Source: Eledone cirrhosa (taxonomy: Eukaryota). Taken from it: a stretch of DNA of 64,000 nt. How positions within the stretch are numbered: position 1 is the first letter of the stretch; each line of letters opens with the position of its first letter. This document shows positions 12,886-50,978 of this stretch, one piece after another. The notes beneath the pieces are model-generated. The model was not told where the DNA came from and searched no databases. It saw only the letters and a list, made by a program, of their open reading frames with translations. The stretch lies in contig OZ024745.1 of NCBI GenBank assembly GCA_964016885.1, forward strand, positions 60,698,001 through 60,762,000. The letters run 5' to 3'. Both the position numbers and the translations under genes were made by a program.

Positions 12886-13002
<117 letters not shown>

Positions 13003-13031
13003 GTGGTAATACAACAGTTATTTCACCATAC

Positions 13032-13069
13032 CGAGAACAATTGTTTCACCTTAGCGGATCGTCAGCTCG
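13032..13069 (-). ncRNA. Minimal type I hammerhead ribozyme, left arm of foldback
   Basis: Minus strand reads CGAG-CTGACGA-tCCgctaaGGt-GAAA-CAATTG-TT-CTCG: helix I CGAG/CTCG, intact core, palindromic helix III. Confidence 0.85.
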
Positions 13070-13082
13070 TAATGGTCCATTA

Positions 13083-13120
13083 CGAGCTGAGGATCCGCTA
13101 AGGTGAAACAATTGTTCTTG
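13083..13120 (+). ncRNA. Minimal type I hammerhead ribozyme, right arm of foldback
   Basis: CGAG-CTGAGGA-tCCgctaaGGt-GAAA-CAATTG-TT-CTTG; inverted copy of 13032-13069. Confidence 0.8.
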
Positions 13121-13711
13121 GTATGGTGAACTAACTGTTGTATTACCACTTCTACCTAACTCGTCCCATGGACTGAGTGCTCTACCACTACGGATATTAC
13201 CTGCCAGTGTTCTATATATATATATATATATATGCTTAATATAGAAACTGCTTCTACAGGACTAGAACTATTTCATTCGAAGAAATCATTTTTATATTAA
13301 AAATTTATACGATACTAGGTATTGAGTACCTTACTTACTGTGGTTACCCCTGATTGAACCCGGGATATACATCTCTCTCTCTCTTTCTTCCTTTCTCCCC
13401 CCCCCCCCTCTCTCTTTCTCTCTATCTCTCTCTCTCTGTATATATATATATTTTTCTTTTCGGGGGTATGTGTTACCCATATGAAATGTCTCCCCCTATT
13501 GGGGATAATCGACTAATTTTTAAATTACATTTGTGATAATATTTTACACGTTTTTATTGTATGTAAACTTCCCCCTTTGTATTTGTCCCCTTCTTTTGTG
13601 CTCCTGTGGCTAATAAAGAAACACACACACACACATATATATATATATGCTGGGCGCACAGGCATTAGGATGTGTGTTTTCCTTCCAGCGACATATCAAA
13701 TATATCGATTT

Positions 13712-17191: not shown

Positions 17192-17568
17192 TCTGTTATT
17201 AATTCTGGCAATATTACAAAAATTATAGTGCAAATTAATTTGGCCTACTTCGTTATACTTATTTTTATCTAAAGACATTTTTTCCAATTCCAACCCGCCC
17301 GTCCCCAGTCTACCGAGATCACTGATGTTATATTCTTATAGAATTCTAGTAAATAATCAGGAGCTGATTATACAGAGCGGTTGTTGGTCAGGCAGAAATT
17401 AAAAATTAGAATTGGAGCTCTGAAATAGCAATATATATATGGATGTATATATAATGTATTTTGCAATACACTTTATGCTTAATTAAAAGCATTTTGAAGA
17501 CCGTAAGCTATTGTTTTTTAGAGTAATGACTAATTCACTTACTTTGATCTCAGCAAACAGGGGAGATA

Positions 17569-17613
17569 AGCCGACAAGGCCTTGTTTCGCATTTGTTGAA
17601 GCTTATCAAGGCT
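17569..17613 (-). ncRNA. Type I hammerhead ribozyme, U3:A8 core variant
   Basis: Minus strand AGCC-TTGATAA-GCttcaacaaatGC-GAAA-CAAGGCCTTG-TC-GGCT; GUC cleavage triplet, 10-nt palindromic helix III. Confidence 0.75.
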
Positions 17614-17616
17614 AAC

Positions 17617-17659
<43 letters not shown>

Positions 17660-26022: not shown

Positions 26023-27024
26023 AATAATGGAGCTGCGGCGTTGCAAATGGGTTACATATGAAAAAGTTTGTCCTTCATCAGTGGCCTTCCAACCGTCGTA
26101 GGCATTTTATCGCTTTAAAGGCCATATACCTCAGGTTGGTGCGAGCAACGGCTAAAAAAAGTCGTTGGGACATGTAAATAAAGGGGACGCTAGGGTAAAC
26201 AAACAAAATGGTTTAAGCAACAGAAAGTGATATATATATATATATATATATATAGTAATAATAATAAATTTGAAGACTAAAATCCAAAGAGGGCTCGATA
26301 AGGATAAATATATATCAAATATATAAGAACCGTAGAGCAAATATTTATTAAAATAACAGATTAAAGTTTAAGCAAAGAATTGCTGCGCTTTCACCCTTAA
26401 CGGGATCTTCTGAAACTAAAAAAATCAATCTGTGAACGCAGAAGTAAATATTTCGAAAAACGTAGCAACCGAAGGAAGACAGGAAGACGATACTTTGGTT
26501 CGTAGAAACGTTCCCTGTTAAAGAACGGGGGAAAAACGAAGATAATACGTCATTATTTGTAGCGGTGAAAACAATTAGATGCAAAGACAAAACCACATTT
26601 ATGGTATAAATGAAGTAGACTAATATTCTATTAGGTGGTTCGTGGAGACGTTCCATGGCAATGAACGGAAAAAACGAAGATAATACGTCATGGTGTGGAG
26701 CGTTGAGAACAATTACACGCAAAGACAAAACCACGTTTATGGTATAAATGAAGTCGTAGACTAAAATTCTATTTAGAAAACCGAATGATTCTCGGCTTCA
26801 GAGTTCAGAATAATGTAAATAAATTACAGAGGTTATTGAAATCAACAATAATTAAATATATACATTCACGCATCCATATACGTACATACACATGCATACG
26901 CGGAAACACCCGCCGTGGGTATGAAACTTTAATCTGTTATTTTAATAAATAAATAAACATATATATATATATACATACTGTATATATATATATATGTGAG
27001 TGTATATATATATATATATACATA

Positions 27025-27071
<47 letters not shown>

Positions 27072-27132
27072 CTGTATATATATATATACATACTGTATAT
27101 ATATATACATACTGTATATATATATATACATA

Positions 27133-27167
<35 letters not shown>

Positions 27168-27285
27168 TAGACATAGAATATTCGAAAATATTCTGTATGT
27201 TTATAATAAACATTTTGAAGACCTAATCGCTATAGAATAGAATACGTCACGTATTACAATTAGATTCTCGATAAAAGCAAGGGAA

Positions 27286-27328
27286 GTAATCTACGCGTTT
27301 CATTCTCGTTAGAAATCATCAGGACTAC
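27286..27328 (-). ncRNA. Type I hammerhead ribozyme, copy 1 of 4 in the 310-bp array
   Basis: Reverse complement of GTAGTC-CTGATGA-tTTCTaacgAGAAt-GAAA-CGCG-TA-GATTAC. Confidence 0.9.
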
Positions 27329-27595
27329 ATATCCAGTGCTTTTATCGAGAATGACACAGCTAGAGACTTATAGAATACTTAGCTGTGTACAGGAACTGGT
27401 TTGAAAGAGCGGTTGCCGGTCCGGCAGAAATTAGAAATTGGAATAAATGCTCTGAAATAGCGATATATATGTGAATATAGACATAGAATATTCGAAAATA
27501 TTCTGTATGTTTATAATAAACATTTTGAAGACCTAATCGCTATAGAATAGAATACGTCACGTATTACAATTAGATTCTCGATAAAAGCAAGGGAA

Positions 27596-27638
27596 GTAAT
27601 CTACGCGTTTCATTCTCGTTAGAAATCATCAGGACTAC
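27596..27638 (-). ncRNA. Type I hammerhead ribozyme, copy 2 of 4
   Basis: Identical to 27286-27328, offset by exactly 310 bp. Confidence 0.9.
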
Positions 27639-27783
27639 ATATCCAGTGCTTTTATCGAGAATGACACAGCTAGAGACTTATAGAATACTTAGCTGTGTAC
27701 AGGAACTGGTTTGAAAGAGCGGTTGCCGGTCCGGCAGAAATTAAGTCTCTAGCTGTGTCATTCTCGATAAAAGCACTGGATAT

Positions 27784-27826
27784 GTAGTCCTGATGATTTC
27801 TAACGAGAATGAAACGCGTAGATTAC
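27784..27826 (+). ncRNA. Type I hammerhead ribozyme, copy 3 of 4
   Basis: GTAGTC-CTGATGA-tTTCTaacgAGAAt-GAAA-CGCG-TA-GATTAC; helix I extended by the 16-bp inverted repeat ATTCTCGATAAAAGCA/TGCTTTTATCGAGAAT. Confidence 0.9.
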
Positions 27827-28093
27827 TTCCCTTGCTTTTATCGAGAATCTAATTGTAATACGTGACGTATTCTATTCTATAGCGATTAGGTCTTCAAAAT
27901 GTTTATTATAAACATACAGAATATTTTCGAATATTCTATGTCTATATTCACATATATATCGCTATTTCAGAGCATTTATTCCAATTTCTAATTTCTGCCG
28001 GACCGGCAACCGCTCTTTCAAACCAGTTCCTGTACACAGCTAAGTATTCTATAAGTCTCTAGCTGTGTCATTCTCGATAAAAGCACTGGATAT

Positions 28094-28136
28094 GTAGTCC
28101 TGATGATTTCTAACGAGAATGAAACGCGTAGATTAC
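28094..28136 (+). ncRNA. Type I hammerhead ribozyme, copy 4 of 4
   Basis: Identical to 27784-27826, offset by 310 bp. Confidence 0.9.
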
Positions 28137-28293
28137 TTCCCTTGCTTTTATCGAGAATCTAATTGTAATACGTGACGTATTCTATTCTATAGCGATTAGG
28201 TCTTCAAAATGTTTATTATAAACATACAGAATATTTTCGAATATTCTATGTCTATATTCACATATATATCGCTATTTCAGAGCATTTATTCCA

Positions 28294-28331
<38 letters not shown>

Positions 28332-28335
28332 TGTG

Positions 28336-28367
<32 letters not shown>

Positions 28368-28371
28368 CATA

Positions 28372-28479
<108 letters not shown>

Positions 28480-30240: not shown

Positions 30241-30569
30241 TCCTCTTGTACCTTTATTTCCTTAAAGCTTTCCTCCTTTTTGTAATATTCACAAGAAAAA
30301 TAAATAAATAAATTACAAAATCGCCTCAACTCCCTCAATTTCAGTCCTAATTAGTCTGTCTTCCTCTGTCCCCTTTCTCGGATTACTTCTCTATATTCCG
30401 CCTGCCTCTACCCCCTTGAAAACAGCTGTCCTGACTGAGAATTTCTGTATAGGTTCACGTGATGAGGTGTTAGGGATCAGAAGTGAAAAAAGTGGGGACG
30501 GGTTGAAGAAAAGGACACAGCTGGAAATAATTATAACAGCAGCAGTAGTATATGTCCCTTGCTGCCACC

Positions 30570-32763
30570 ACCACCACTACAACTACTGCTACAACCACCA
30601 TTAGTACAACCACTACAAGAACCATACTACAACCACCACTAGAATCACCACTACTGCCACCACTACTACCACCACTACTACCACCACTACAGCCACCACT
30701 ACAGCCACCACTACTGCTACCACTACAACCACCACTACAACCACCACTAGAATCACCACTACTGCCACCACTACTACCACCACTACTACCACCACTACTG
30801 CCACCACTACTGCCGCCACTACTGCCACCACTACAGCCACCACTACAGCCACCACTACTGCTACCACTACTACCACCACTAGAATCACCACTACTGCCAC
30901 CACTACTACCACCACTAGAATCACCACTACAGCCACCACTACAGCCACCACTACTACTACCACTACTACCACCACTAGAATCACCACTACTGCTACCACT
31001 ACTACCACCACTAGAATCACCACTACAGCCACCACTACAGCCACCACTACTACTACCACTACTACCACCACTAGAATCACCACTACTGCCACCACTACTA
31101 CCACCACTAGAATCACCACTACTGCCACCACTACTACCACCACTACTACCACCACTACTGCCACCACTACTGCCGCCACTACTACCACCACTACAGCCAC
31201 CACTACAGCCACCACTACTGCTACCACTACTGCCACCACTACAACCACCACTACTGCCACCACTACTACCACCACTACTACCACCACTACTGCCACCACT
31301 ACTACCACCACTACTACCACCACTACTGCCACCACTACTGCCGCCACTACAGCCACCACTACAGCCACCACTACTGCTACCACTACTGCCACCACTACAA
31401 CCACCACTACTGCCACCACTATTACCACCACTACTACCACCACTACTGCCACCACTACTACCACCTATACTACCACCACTACTGCCACCACTACTGCCGC
31501 CTCTACTACCACCACTACAGCCACCACTACAGCCACCACTACTGCTACCACTACTGCCACCACTACAACCACCACTACTGCCACCACTACTACCACCACT
31601 ACTACCACCACTACTGCCACCACTACTACCACCACTACTACCACCACTACTGCCACCACTACTGCTACCACTACAGCCACCACTACTACCACCACTACTA
31701 CCACCACTACTGCCACCACTACTGCTACCACTACAGCCACCACTACTACCACCACTACTACCACCACTACTGCCACCACTACTGCTACCACTACAGCCAC
31801 CACTACTACCACAACTACTACCACCACTACTGCCACCACTACTGCTACCACTAAAGCCACTACTACATCCACCACTACTGCTACCACTACTACCACCACT
31901 ACTGCCACCACTACTACCACCACCTCTACCACCACTAGAACCACCACCACAGCCTCCACTACAACCACCACTACTACCACCTTTACAACCACCACTAGAA
32001 CCACCACTACTACCACCACTACAACCACCACTACAACCACCACAAGAACTACTACTACAGCCAAAACTACTACCAACACTGCAGCCACCACTACTGCCAC
32101 CTATACTACCACCACTACAACCACCACTACAACCACCACTAGATCCACCACTACTACCACCACTATAGTCACCACTACTGTCACCTATTCTACCACCACT
32201 ACAACCACCACTACAACCACTACTAGATCCACCACTACAGCCACCACTACAACCACCACTACTGCCACCACTACTGCAGCAACTACAACCACACTACTGC
32301 CACTACTTCAACCACCGCTACTACCACCACTACTACCATCACTACAACCACCACTACTGCCACCACTACTACCACCACTACTGCCACCATTACAGCCACT
32401 ACTACTACCACCAATACTGCCAACACTACAACCACCACTACTGCCACCACTACTACAACCACCACTACAACCACCACAAGAACTACCACTACAACCACCA
32501 CAAGAACTACCACTACAACCACCACTACTGCAACAACTACAACCACCACTACTACCACCACCGCTACTGCCACCACTACCACCACCACTACTACCTCCAC
32601 TACTACCACCACAACAACCACCACTACTACCACCACTACAACCACCACTACTACCACCTCCACTACTACCACCACAACAACCACCACAACAACCACCACT
32701 ACTACCACCACTACAACCACCACTACTGCTGTACTGCTACTACTACTACTACTACTACTACTA
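30570..32763. repeat. 2.2-kb minisatellite, ~12-bp unit CCACTACTACCA with higher-order variants
   Basis: Directly visible; source of the PPLL and poly-V ORFs. Confidence 0.9.
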
Positions 32764-32856
32764 CAATAAATGGAAGATTGAGCAATCTTTAATAGTCTTG
32801 TACCATTATTTGTAAAACCCAAAGACTATTAAAGATTGCTCAATCTTCCATTTATT

Positions 32857-42219: not shown

Positions 42220-42365
42220 TTTTGAGTTTATGTTGGTTGTATACCAACACCCCAGTATGCAGGCTGGAGCACTCGACGAAGTGCGCAGGTTGGTTTGGTT
42301 ACTCCGGAGTAGTGTAAAATAAAGTTAAATAAAAGTCAAATGATTAAAATTTAGCTTCGTTTATT

Positions 42366-42420
42366 ACTGCTATATATATTTCAGTGACAGCCATCTTTGG
42401 CTGTGACCTCTTCAGGCAGT
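42366..42420 (-). ncRNA. Type I hammerhead ribozyme, left arm of 160-bp foldback
   Basis: Exact reverse complement of 42546-42600. Confidence 0.88.
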
Positions 42421-42545
42421 TTGAATTAGTATGGTATAGACAAGTACATATGTTGTTTAGGTGTATGATATTGTCAATACTCTGAGTATTGACAATATCA
42501 TACACCTAAACAACATATGTACTTTTCTATACCATACTAATTCAA

Positions 42546-42600
42546 ACTGCCTGAAGAGGTCACAGCCAAAGATGGCTGTCACTGAAATATATATAGCAGT
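42546..42600 (+). ncRNA. Type I hammerhead ribozyme, right arm of foldback
   Basis: ACTGC-CTGAAGA-ggtcACAGCCAaagaTGGCTGTcact-GAAA-TATATA-TA-GCAGT. Confidence 0.88.
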
Positions 42601-42638
42601 AATAAACGAAGCTAAATTTTAATCATTTGACTTTTATT

Positions 42639-42689
<51 letters not shown>

Positions 42690-49357: not shown

Positions 49358-49446
49358 GTGTAAAATGTAAACAGAAATAGCAACACAATCGGTACAGTAT
49401 ATGGAAGGGATATATTAGGTTAACGCTTGATATAGCAGGAAGAGGG

Positions 49447-49482
49447 TCTTAACGTTTCGGACGCTAGTCCTTCATCAGAAGA
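49447..49482 (-). ncRNA. Minimal type I hammerhead ribozyme
   Basis: Minus strand TCTT-CTGATGA-aGGACtagcGTCC-GAAA-CG-TT-AAGA. Confidence 0.85.
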
Positions 49483-49772
49483 AAGAATGAGAAATAAGAT
49501 AGATTGAGGGGACGGGCGGGTTGGAATTGGAAAAAACGCCTTTAGATAAAAATAACAGGTCCATTCATGTTGACATCTCTTGCAAAACATATATGTCGGT
49601 TTTTTTTTTCGAAGGAAAAAAAGCAGTGATTTCGAAGTTTTGGCTGTAATGATAGTAATCAGATTAAAGAGGTTCTATAAAGCCGGAACGTCGAAGTTAC
49701 TGCCAACCTATATCTGCTTATATGTACTGACTGTTCATTCAATTAACGTTTGACGGGTTCTATGTTTATATT

Positions 49773-49803
<31 letters not shown>

Positions 49804-49939
49804 GGGGGGGGGGGGGTGCATGTGTATGCGTGTGTGTATGTCTATATATATATATATATATACATATATATATGCAAATAGTATTTGAAAAGTACAAAGC
49901 AAACATTTAGCTTAACAATTAGCTTAACGCTTGATAGAG

Positions 49940-49975
49940 TCTTTACGTTTCGGAAAGCTCTCCTTCGTCAGAAGA
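49940..49975 (-). ncRNA. Minimal type I hammerhead ribozyme, paralog of 49447-49482
   Basis: Minus strand TCTT-CTGACGA-aGGAGagctTTCC-GAAA-CG-TA-AAGA; helix II covaries with the 49447 copy. Confidence 0.85.
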
Positions 49976-50978
49976 AAGAATGGGAAATAAAAGATGAATT
50001 AGTAAAATAAGAGAGAGAAGAGGAAGGAACGGGAAAAAAATTTGAGAAAAAACACGCGTGTATTCAGTCAGCCATTTTGGAATAGATATATTAACATTTT
50101 AAAAAAGAAAATTGCTCCATTGTGCAGTAACGACGAAATTTATGATGACGATTGACGAAATTAAAGTTGCCGATGAAGAAGTTAAAGTTAACGATGGTGA
50201 AACTGTAACTGACGATAACGAGATTGAGGATGATGATGATGATGATGATTTTGAGATTAGCGTTGGCGAGATTGTCGCTGATACTGACGAATTTGTGGGG
50301 GAAAACCCTGTATATCAACGGCGGAAGGTTAGCACGGTCACTGTGACTGAAACTAGTTTAAAAAAAAACCCCACGCACTTACACATACACAAACACACAT
50401 ATATTTCTGTGTATGTACACCTGGGCCTCTTTTTTTTTTTTTTAACCTATAAAATTCTGATCAATGCATGCTTCCGTTTATTTCTATAATAAAATAAACA
50501 GTGAAATGAAGGAAGAGAAGAACATGCAATTCTGATGCAATATTCTACTATATTGCATTAGGCCTGCTGCATTTCATACAACGAAAAAGAACGATACATT
50601 CTTGGAAGATAAACAACAAAAAATGCAACACGACAACAATAAAAAAAACAACAGACCATCACGAAAAAAAAGCACTTAAACAACACTCGGGAGGGGGAGC
50701 GGGTGCTCTACGTGGTCACTCGATCTGCTAGATAAAACAGCCAAGTATTGTTGAATTCATACACTAATGTGTTTAAAAAAATGGAAATCAAAACTTCGTA
50801 GTCACTCTCACTTATTTTTCTCACGTAAACCTATACTCTGATCATATGTATTGAGTGCTCATTCAGTTATTGCTTGAACGAAAGCACCCACTTCAGTATA
50901 CTCACATGATTATGCGTGCGCGCACAAGTACAAGCACTTATATACACACGCATACATACATACCACACAAACACACGG

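What the first reader, a model, noticed from the sequence alone, without database searches (positions are those of the whole stretch)
27164..28297. 310-bp HHR monomer as two tandem plus two inverted copies: candidate retrozyme / circular RNA replicon
Seen: exact 310-bp period, four apparently identical intact HHRs and a ~517-bp-arm palindrome. A 16-bp inverted repeat extends helix I past an internal loop. No credible coding ORF. Transcription in either direction crosses two sense HHRs 310 nt apart. Established: non-LTR retrozymes are tandem units of a few hundred nt, each with a type I HHR, that self-process to monomers and circles. Inference: a very recent insertion copied from a circular or multimeric template; it could release a 310-nt RNA from either strand or form long dsRNA.
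Basis: partly seen in the sequence, partly recalled or inferred. Interest (0 to 1): 0.88.

Follow-up and report, generated by a model that had tools for sequence, protein, structure and literature searches.

The report
Penelope-mobilised hammerhead retrozyme, two-armed insertion
This is one copy of a very young, abundant 310-base self-cutting-RNA parasite of a known kind (an animal retrozyme), and the shape of its many insertions suggests that a borrowed Penelope-type reverse transcriptase copies one small RNA circle round and round from both ends of the cut DNA.

Summary
In detail: two back-to-back arms of a 310-bp non-coding unit (1.87 and 1.79 copies), four identical type I hammerheads, inside a (TA)n tract. 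It is not a one-off. The family has an estimated 1,500-1,800 loci. Of 64 scored loci, 54 have two divergent arms, and in all 54 one arm ends at site A and the other at site B, about 30-35 nt apart in the unit: the inverted copy plus 'tail' typical of Penelope-like elements (PLEs). Related 320-bp families support the ribozyme by covariation. The multimer arms allow mechanistic tests. Arm lengths are independent, both arms of a locus share one haplotype (25 haplotypes among 59 loci), and variants are mostly single-unit. This argues against fold-back copying and later local expansion. It favours two reverse-transcription starts on one circular monomer; a linear multimer template is not excluded. 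Cleavage, expression, circles and the partner PLE are not shown. Read-through of this particular locus would form dsRNA rather than release monomers.

The parts
26959..27163 (.). Left part of the target: compound (TA)n microsatellite
   Evidence: Sequence. The same CATACTG variant occurs in the same orientation on both flanks, as expected for insertion into one tract and not for a fold-back read.
27164..27743 (-). Minus arm, 1.87 units, outer (3') end at site A (unit position 271), inner (5') end at unit position 2
27742..27743 (.). Head-to-head junction, 2-nt TA microhomology shared by both arms
   Evidence: 35 of 54 two-arm loci show overlap of 1 nt or more, 7 are blunt, 12 have inserted bases
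27742..28297 (+). Plus arm, 1.79 units, inner end at unit position 65, outer (3') end at site B (unit position 310)
27988..28297 (+). Reference 310-bp unit as used here (non-coding, 34.5% GC)
27784..27826 (+). Type I hammerhead 1: helix I 6 bp, core CUGAUGA/GAAA/UA, helix II 4 bp after a U10.1-U11.1 mismatch, palindromic helix III; predicted cut 27820/27821
   Evidence: cleavage not tested
28094..28136 (+). Type I hammerhead 2, identical; predicted cut 28130/28131
27596..27638 (-). Type I hammerhead 3, identical; predicted cut 27602/27601
27286..27328 (-). Type I hammerhead 4, identical; predicted cut 27292/27291
27760..27848 (+). Ribozyme domain closed by a 16-bp helix (27760-27775 with 27833-27848) beyond an internal loop; repeated in every unit
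   Evidence: the helix is kept by compensatory changes in related families
27821..28130 (+). Predicted 310-nt cut-to-cut monomer (circle precursor)
   Evidence: inference from the two predicted cut sites; fold
28228..28247 (+). 8-bp hairpin just upstream of site A, inside the block conserved with related families; candidate RT-binding signal
   Evidence: fold; block 75% identical to family 2; stem changes seen by eye; role is inference
28259..28297 (+). 'Tail': sequence between site A and site B, present only at the outer end of the plus arm
   Evidence: 28-39 nt here, depending on how the TA-like bases at site A are assigned
28298..28478 (.). Right part of the target microsatellite; a target-site duplication cannot be read inside (TA)n

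Best explanation
It is a recent insertion of a 310-nt non-LTR retrozyme, a non-coding passenger of Penelope-like element (PLE) machinery. SHOWN: a dispersed family of tandem arrays in (TA)n, each unit with a type I hammerhead; most loci have two divergent multimer arms, one ending at site A and one at site B; one haplotype per locus; independent arm lengths; microhomology at the join. INFERRED: tandem transcripts self-cleave, probably as ribozyme dimers through the palindromic helix III, and a host ligase closes the monomer into a circle. A PLE RT-endonuclease binds near the hairpin before site A and cuts both strands of a (TA)n tract. It then starts reverse transcription twice on the same circle, at A from one DNA end and at B from the other. 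Each enzyme runs round the circle until it falls off at random (mean about 4-6 turns), and the two cDNA ends are joined by microhomology. This gives the head-to-head array with a tail on one side only.
For: Family size: 4,054 exact cores of one haplotype; 782 forward-strand B-ends, so about 1,560 B-ended loci. Geometry: of 64 scored loci, 54 two-arm loci are all A+B, 9 are single arms ending at A, 1 is a single arm ending at B. Census without pair selection: of all 52 distinct B-ends listed for C1:1-101.4 Mb, 50 have a divergent A-ended arm, 1 is single-armed, 1 runs into an assembly gap. 113 of 118 outer ends abut TA repeats. This matches the PLE inverted copy plus 30-40 bp tail (PMC8557442) and the two internal RT start sites and both-strand extension shown in vitro (PMC11167929). 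Two starts: arm lengths rho 0.22, p 0.11, B arm longer in 27 of 54. One template: no real arm-private fixed variant among the 60 arms of 4 or more units (the single listed case, L050, is one 2-nt deletion aligned two ways), while two random loci share a haplotype 18% of the time; 25 haplotypes among 59 loci, with derived ones fixed across 13-28 units. One-step synthesis: pooled arm lengths fit an exponential (KS p 0.33, n = 118); within arms 49 single-unit against 12 multi-unit variants, where stepwise growth predicts 57% singles (p 1e-4); 21 of 42 arms of 6 or more units have no variant. 5' ends are not piled at the cut site: 2 of 108. Ribozyme: 19 of 33 consensus pairs show two-sided change over 8 sequences, with C3-G8 replaced by U3-A8 in the relatives; 0 of 23 fixed variants hit the 12 core positions (about 1 expected by chance, so weak). 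Intact RT + GIY-YIG frames of 938 and 1,096 aa exist in the genome.
Against: No RNA evidence was obtained: expression, cleavage and circles are untested. Helix III is only 2 bp as a monomer, and the hammerhead fold is 1.5 kcal/mol above the minimum-energy fold. In vitro, PLE insertion did not need ribozyme cleavage and used uncleaved RNA (PMC11167929), and 8 of 9 Xenopus retrozymes did not cleave. Two loci are mosaic for one variant (L078, L080) and one variant sits in the outermost unit of both arms (L065), as a heterogeneous linear template would give. Four long arrays show periodic variant blocks, so later duplication does occur. Single-unit variants may include assembly errors, which would inflate the star-like signal. 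The autonomous partner was not found. All scored loci but the window's come from one chromosome of one assembly.
Confidence: 0.63

Rival explanations
1. Same element and same two PLE start sites, but the template is a linear, uncleaved multimer transcribed from a genomic array; the ribozyme is dispensable for insertion.
For: Uncleaved RNA was the substrate in vitro and ribozyme mutants inserted normally (PMC11167929); weak monomer helix III; young source arrays are homogeneous, which alone gives one haplotype per locus; L065 mirror variant and L078/L080 mosaics.
Against: Without a monomer bottleneck a new variant cannot become fixed across a long array, yet 25 haplotypes are each fixed across whole loci. 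Only 2 of 39 mirror-position checks (one pair) were shared between arms, and only 2 single-unit variants recur between loci. Read-through of two-armed loci would fold into dsRNA.
Confidence: 0.23
2. Insertions are short (one to two units per arm) and the arrays grow later by unequal exchange, as proposed for vertebrate retrozymes (Li et al. 2026 preprint).
For: It explains homogeneity; periodic variant blocks in L048, L050, L051 and L071/072 (periods 7 and 27 units in L050 and L071/072) show that duplication happens.
Against: 49 single against 12 multi-unit variants versus 57% expected; 40 against 4 in arms under 15 units; half of the long arms have no variant. The multi-unit variants lie in only 6 of 60 arms.
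Confidence: 0.07
3. The inverted arm arises by self-priming fold-back of the first cDNA (model in PMC3846280), not by a second start on the RNA.
For: Microhomology at 35 of 54 joins; a few joins carry short fold-back-like pieces (L041, L034, L074).
Against: A fold-back copy cannot be longer than its template or gain the tail. The tailless A arm is the longer in 27 of 54 loci, and no A+A or B+B locus was seen.
Confidence: 0.04
4. The palindrome is an assembly or read fold-back artefact, or the unit is only the pLTR of a coding PLE.
For: This locus's own junction was not bridged by any listed contig in 4 public runs. The partner PLE is unfound, so its terminus is unknown.
Against: The flanks are not inverted; 54 loci have almost all different joins but the same A+B rule, with different outer ends on the two arms; an independent run shows TA loose ends at site A. 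No PLE protein match adjoined a unit where this was tested, and arrays fill the insertions.
Confidence: 0.03

Closest known systems
Non-LTR retrozymes of animals (Cervera and de la Pena 2020, PMC7229834; Li, Clavereau and Pollet 2026, bioRxiv 10.64898/2026.07.22.740005)
   Same: Tandem non-coding units of 150-450 bp, low GC, one type I hammerhead per unit, dimers to large multimers; proposed to be non-autonomous PLE derivatives copied from circular RNA.
   Different: Those texts do not describe divergent two-armed arrays, tails or microsatellite targets (term counts: 'inverted' 0 and 'microsatellite' 0 in PMC7229834; 'tail' 0 and no relevant 'invert' passage in the preprint; supplements not seen). 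Here the PLE link rests on insertion geometry rather than on sequence similarity to a pLTR, and circles are not demonstrated.
Insertions of endonuclease-bearing Penelope-like elements (PMC8557442, PMC3846280, PMC11167929)
   Same: Inverted 5'-truncated copy, head-to-head join, 30-40 bp tail at one end, (TA)n target, start sites downstream of a hammerhead.
   Different: No coding frame; both arms are multimers of a 310-nt unit (up to 45 units); the inversion is near-obligatory and the A+B pairing held in 54 of 54 two-arm loci.
Non-autonomous Chlamys elements such as MRC1 (PMC8557442)
   Same: Non-autonomous PLE passengers with multicopy head-to-tail insertions.
   Different: Chlamys/Naiad elements are reported to lack canonical hammerheads and share 3' ends with known autonomous partners; this unit has a hammerhead and no partner was found.
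L1 twin priming (recalled, not looked up)
   Same: Two priming events from the two target ends give an inversion joined by microhomology.
   Different: In L1 the second site is variable and the arms cover different parts of a linear RNA; here both sites are fixed, adjacent and internal, and both arms repeat the whole unit.

Membership tests
Non-LTR retrozyme | Tandem repeats of 150-450 bp, dimers to multimers | tested here: met
   310-bp period; arms of 0.3 to 45 units
Non-LTR retrozyme | Type I hammerhead in every unit | tested here: met
   Complete core and three helices; covariation in relatives; not matched by Rfam models; U10.1-U11.1 instead of G-C, also seen in PLE-end hammerheads of this genome
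Non-LTR retrozyme | Non-coding, low GC | tested here: met
   Longest Met frame 30 aa; GC 34.5%
Non-LTR retrozyme | Self-cleavage to monomers | not testable with these tools
   Needs in vitro transcription
Non-LTR retrozyme | Expressed as linear and circular RNA | not testable with these tools
   Only contigs of runs of unrecorded kind could be laid; they cannot show RNA ends, strand or circles
PLE-mobilised insertion | Inverted 5'-truncated copy joined head-to-head | tested here: met
   54 of 64 scored loci; 50 of 52 listed B-ends
PLE-mobilised insertion | 30-40 bp tail on one end only | tested here: met
   Ends at unit 271-282 and 306-313; A+B in 54 of 54 two-arm loci
PLE-mobilised insertion | AT-rich or (TA)n target | tested here: met
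   113 of 118 outer ends
PLE-mobilised insertion | Shared terminus with an autonomous RT + GIY-YIG element | tested here: inconclusive
   No linked match in 46 GIY-YIG loci out of 10,595 first-look candidates, 60 loci of related families or 2 loci of a hammerhead-related family
Autonomous PLE / pLTR of a coding element | RT + GIY-YIG frame attached to the repeat | tested here: not met
   No such frame between or attached to the arms in 40 loci scanned for frames of 250 aa or more or 16 loci searched with 5 PLE proteins (the hits in L161 lie away from the array)
Viroid-like RNA replicon | RNA-to-RNA replication, ribozymes in both polarities of the unit | tested here: not met
   The motif scan finds one hammerhead polarity per unit; the minus-strand cores are inverted DNA copies. 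RNA replication itself is not testable here.

The most novel reading that the evidence does not exclude
The family is a genomic record of the PLE integration reaction: a dimeric PLE enzyme holds one 310-nt RNA circle and starts rolling-circle reverse transcription at two adjacent sites, one from each end of a double-strand cut. This single reaction would account for the tandem repeats, the inversion and the tail, and the arm lengths would report the processivity of each enzyme in vivo.
Probability: 0.45. Interest if true: 0.75.

Novelty: new member of a known kind. Interest (0 to 1): 0.52.

Why it matters
The element class is known. What this family adds is a test bed for an open question: how PLEs make tandem, inverted and tailed insertions, and whether ribozyme-made circles are the templates. 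That idea was proposed in 2014 and 2020 (PMC4209133, PMC7229834), while the one in vitro study found cleavage dispensable (PMC11167929). Because both arms are multimers of a tiny unit, with well over a thousand very young loci, fold-back, local expansion and circle models make different predictions that can be counted, and a first count favours two starts on one circle. The unit is also a minimal natural substrate for reconstituting PLE retrotransposition, and an estimated 5 Mb of near-perfect palindromes is a large potential source of dsRNA.

Tried and rejected
Rfam: no hammerhead at gathering or up to E = 10; read as a gap in the models, since motif and covariation hold. DNA search of the genome with the unit returned nothing, not even the window, because common words are skipped; patterns were used instead. 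Public runs: no RNA holder listed, which says nothing on expression. Laying four runs: two hold the unit as a single closed 340-nt contig without differences, which tandem DNA and a circle would both give, and the run kind is not on record; the locus-specific join was not bridged, and such a hole proves nothing. Partner search: GIY-YIG loci, their 3' flanks, loci of the conserved motif and two loci of a hammerhead-related family gave no linked frame; the sample is small. My first idea that site B is the unit boundary and site A a chance internal priming site was dropped once the A+B rule appeared. Several variants that first looked locus-private proved shared when more loci were added. The 5'-end histogram was distorted by dropped short BLAST pieces and was redone. 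A-arm 5' ends near site B: 10 of 63 against 4.3 expected (p 0.009), but noticed after the fact and not significant in a scan test (p 0.45), so not used as support. Two loci were left out of the 64-locus count: L056 (complex duplication) and L075 (assembly gap); L071 and L072 were treated as one locus. Earlier scan notes by sequence and by place: nothing.

Full report
OBSERVATION. The sequence has an exact 310-bp period (279 of 281 positions, against about 63 at offsets 309 and 311). Two arms point away from each other: 27743->27164 on the minus strand (1.87 units) and 27742-28297 on the plus strand (1.79 units). They have no difference from the unit and share a 2-nt TA overlap at the centre. 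Each arm holds two identical hammerhead cores. Both flanks are one compound (TA)n tract whose variant repeat reads the same way on both sides. The unit is non-coding (longest Met frame 30 aa on the circularised unit) and 34.5% GC. Rfam finds no hammerhead.

THE RIBOZYME. It parses as type I: helix I of 6 bp, core CUGAUGA / GAAA / UA, helix II of 4 bp behind a U10.1-U11.1 mismatch, and a palindromic helix III, closed beyond an internal loop by a 16-bp helix. A short palindromic helix III is the reported mark of metazoan hammerheads that cut as dimers (PMC4209133, passages). A diverged relative at window 17.3-17.6 kb led to a second family with 320-bp period, and a conserved motif led to more (6,656 matches). 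Across 8 sequences, 19 of 33 consensus pairs show two-sided changes. I chose the seven relatives by their parsed hammerheads and several are close kin, and the predicted consensus mispairs the core, so this supports the helices and is not a formal test. The relatives replace C3-G8 by U3-A8 and keep a palindromic or near-palindromic helix III of different sequence. None of 23 variants fixed in loci of this family touches the 12 core positions, which is weak alone (about 1 expected). Activity is untested. The hammerhead fold lies 1.5 kcal/mol above the minimum-energy fold, and a transcript of the whole locus would pair both sense ribozymes into a long hairpin.

THE FAMILY. The exact 38-nt core occurs 4,054 times and its control 0 times. 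The B-end pattern has 782 forward matches, so about 1,560 B-ended loci. The density on C1 (52 B-ends plus 9 single A-ended arms in 101 Mb) extrapolates to about 1,800 loci, and at 3.0 kb each (192 kb in 64 loci) to about 5 Mb. These are estimates from one chromosome. I fetched 66 stretches; two of them cover one locus, and with the window that makes 66 loci. Leaving out one complex locus and one with a gap gives 64. Fifty-four have two divergent arms, and every one pairs an end at site A (unit 271-282) with an end at site B (unit 306-313); 9 are single arms ending at A and 1 at B. Some regions were picked because A and B matches lay close, so I also completed a census: of all 52 distinct B-ends listed for C1:1-101.4 Mb, 50 have a divergent A arm, 1 has none and 1 is cut by a gap. 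Outer ends abut TA repeats in 113 of 118 cases. Joins show overlap in 35 of 54, are blunt in 7 and carry inserts in 12.

WHAT THE GEOMETRY MEANS. An inverted 5'-truncated copy, a 30-40 bp tail at one end and (TA)n targets are the described marks of PLE insertions (PMC8557442, passages; PMC3846280, passages). In vitro, an anole PLE protein cut and extended both target strands and began reverse transcription at two adjacent internal sites, with the tail lying between them (PMC11167929, parts 1-2 of 4). Sites A and B fit these two starts. The genome holds PLE frames with RT and C-terminal GIY-YIG of 938 and 1,096 aa, whose family ends also abut (TA)n. I did not find one sharing this unit's end.

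MECHANISM TESTS. (1) Two starts or fold-back. A fold-back copy cannot exceed its template or gain the tail. Arm lengths are uncorrelated (rho 0.22, p 0.11), the B arm is longer in 27 of 54 loci, and no A+A or B+B locus occurs. This favours two independent starts. (2) One template. There are 25 haplotypes among 59 loci, each fixed in both arms, for example 28 units in L048, 18 in L052 and period 308 or 311 in both arms of L050 and L041. Two random loci share a haplotype 18% of the time, and no real arm-private fixed variant was seen. (3) One step or later growth. Arm lengths fit an exponential (means 4.4 and 6.2 units, pooled KS p 0.33). Within arms, variants are 49 single against 12 multi-unit, where stepwise growth predicts 57% singles (p 1e-4), and 21 of 42 arms of 6 or more units are invariant. 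Four long arrays do show later duplication, and singles may include assembly error. (4) Circle or linear multimer. 5' ends do not collect at the cut site (2 of 108), so reverse transcription passes through it. Only one mirror pair of variants was shared between arms in 39 checks. A linear route offers no bottleneck to fix new variants across long arrays, whereas a monomer circle does. Against this stand the L065 mirror pair, the mosaics L078 and L080, the in vitro result that cleavage is dispensable, the inactivity of 8 of 9 tested Xenopus elements, and my failure to find clear source-daughter pairs. I put the circle at roughly 3 to 1 over the linear template.

PUBLIC RUNS. Six runs from four studies and four organism labels hold 90-100% of the unit's words. 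In the four laid, one shows 557 contigs with TA loose ends at site A, and two show a single closed 340-nt contig (310 + 30) without differences. This shows the unit outside this assembly and nothing about RNA. The join specific to this locus was not bridged.

COMPARISON AND NOVELTY. It meets the testable features of a non-LTR retrozyme (PMC7229834, passages; Li et al. 2026 preprint, parts 1-3 of 5 plus term search) and of a PLE-type insertion, so it is a new member of a known kind. Circles as templates for more-than-unit copying were proposed before, and multicopy non-autonomous PLEs are known (MRC1). In five full-text searches and the passages read, I found no description of retrozyme arrays with two multimer arms under an A+B rule, nor these tests. 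The library lacks most subscription papers, and I read no supplements, where such structures could be shown. The host looks like an octopod cephalopod from recalled repeat content and chromosome sizes; I did not test this. A recent octopus repeat annotation has no occurrence of 'ribozyme' in its main text (PMC13282606, passages). Three unchecked notes of this scan report similar PLE-type concatemers or palindromes in other genomes; I saw them after forming my reading and do not count them as support.

VERDICT. A real, correctly spotted retrozyme insertion of a large young family. The class is known. The value lies in the two-start, one-template, multimer record it gives of PLE integration. Interest 0.52.

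Noticed in passing
window 17305-17620: Truncated copy of a related 320-bp family (about 75% alike over the block around sites A and B) whose hammerhead has a U3-A8 core; its loci also show divergent arms with two end sites about 30 nt apart.
   Followed up: partly
window 12995-13150 and 42320-42640: Short palindromes inside (TA)n, each with a hammerhead-like core on both strands; they look like stump-sized inverted PLE ends of other families.
   Followed up: no
window 49430-49980 (minus strand): Two similar but non-identical hammerhead-like motifs 493 bp apart with microsatellite between them.
   Followed up: no
window ~25470 (minus) and ~54300 (plus): Hammerhead-like motifs matching the 3' flanks of coding PLE families in L121 and L114.
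   Followed up: partly
window 30500-32800: 12-bp minisatellite with strong GC skew and open frames up to 736 aa; probably low-complexity.
   Followed up: no
L124:3150-3350, L203, L204: A very abundant family (8,740 exact cores) shares this unit's helix II and U-U mismatch but has a different 3' end; the retrozyme may be a chimera of its ribozyme and the A/B block.
   Followed up: partly
L046 and L080: Two loci of different haplotype have the same inversion join (unit positions 310 and 89), hinting at a preferred stall or joining site.
   Followed up: no
census loci: Single-armed loci end at site A in 9 of 10 cases, suggesting that A is the primary or more robust start; A-arm 5' ends are mildly enriched near site B (10 of 63, noticed after the fact).
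   Followed up: partly
L041, L046, L068, L076, L157, L161: Two fixed variants (an insertion and a substitution) lie within two bases of the predicted cut and ligation site; they could be ligation or RT scars.
   Followed up: no
runs X1 and X2: Each holds only the window's haplotype as one closed contig, although about two thirds of sampled genomic loci carry another base at unit 128; the run kind is not on record.
   Followed up: no
L111, L112, L113: Long open PLE frames (RT then GIY-YIG); L116 is a palindromic pair of truncated frames of the L111 family.
   Followed up: partly
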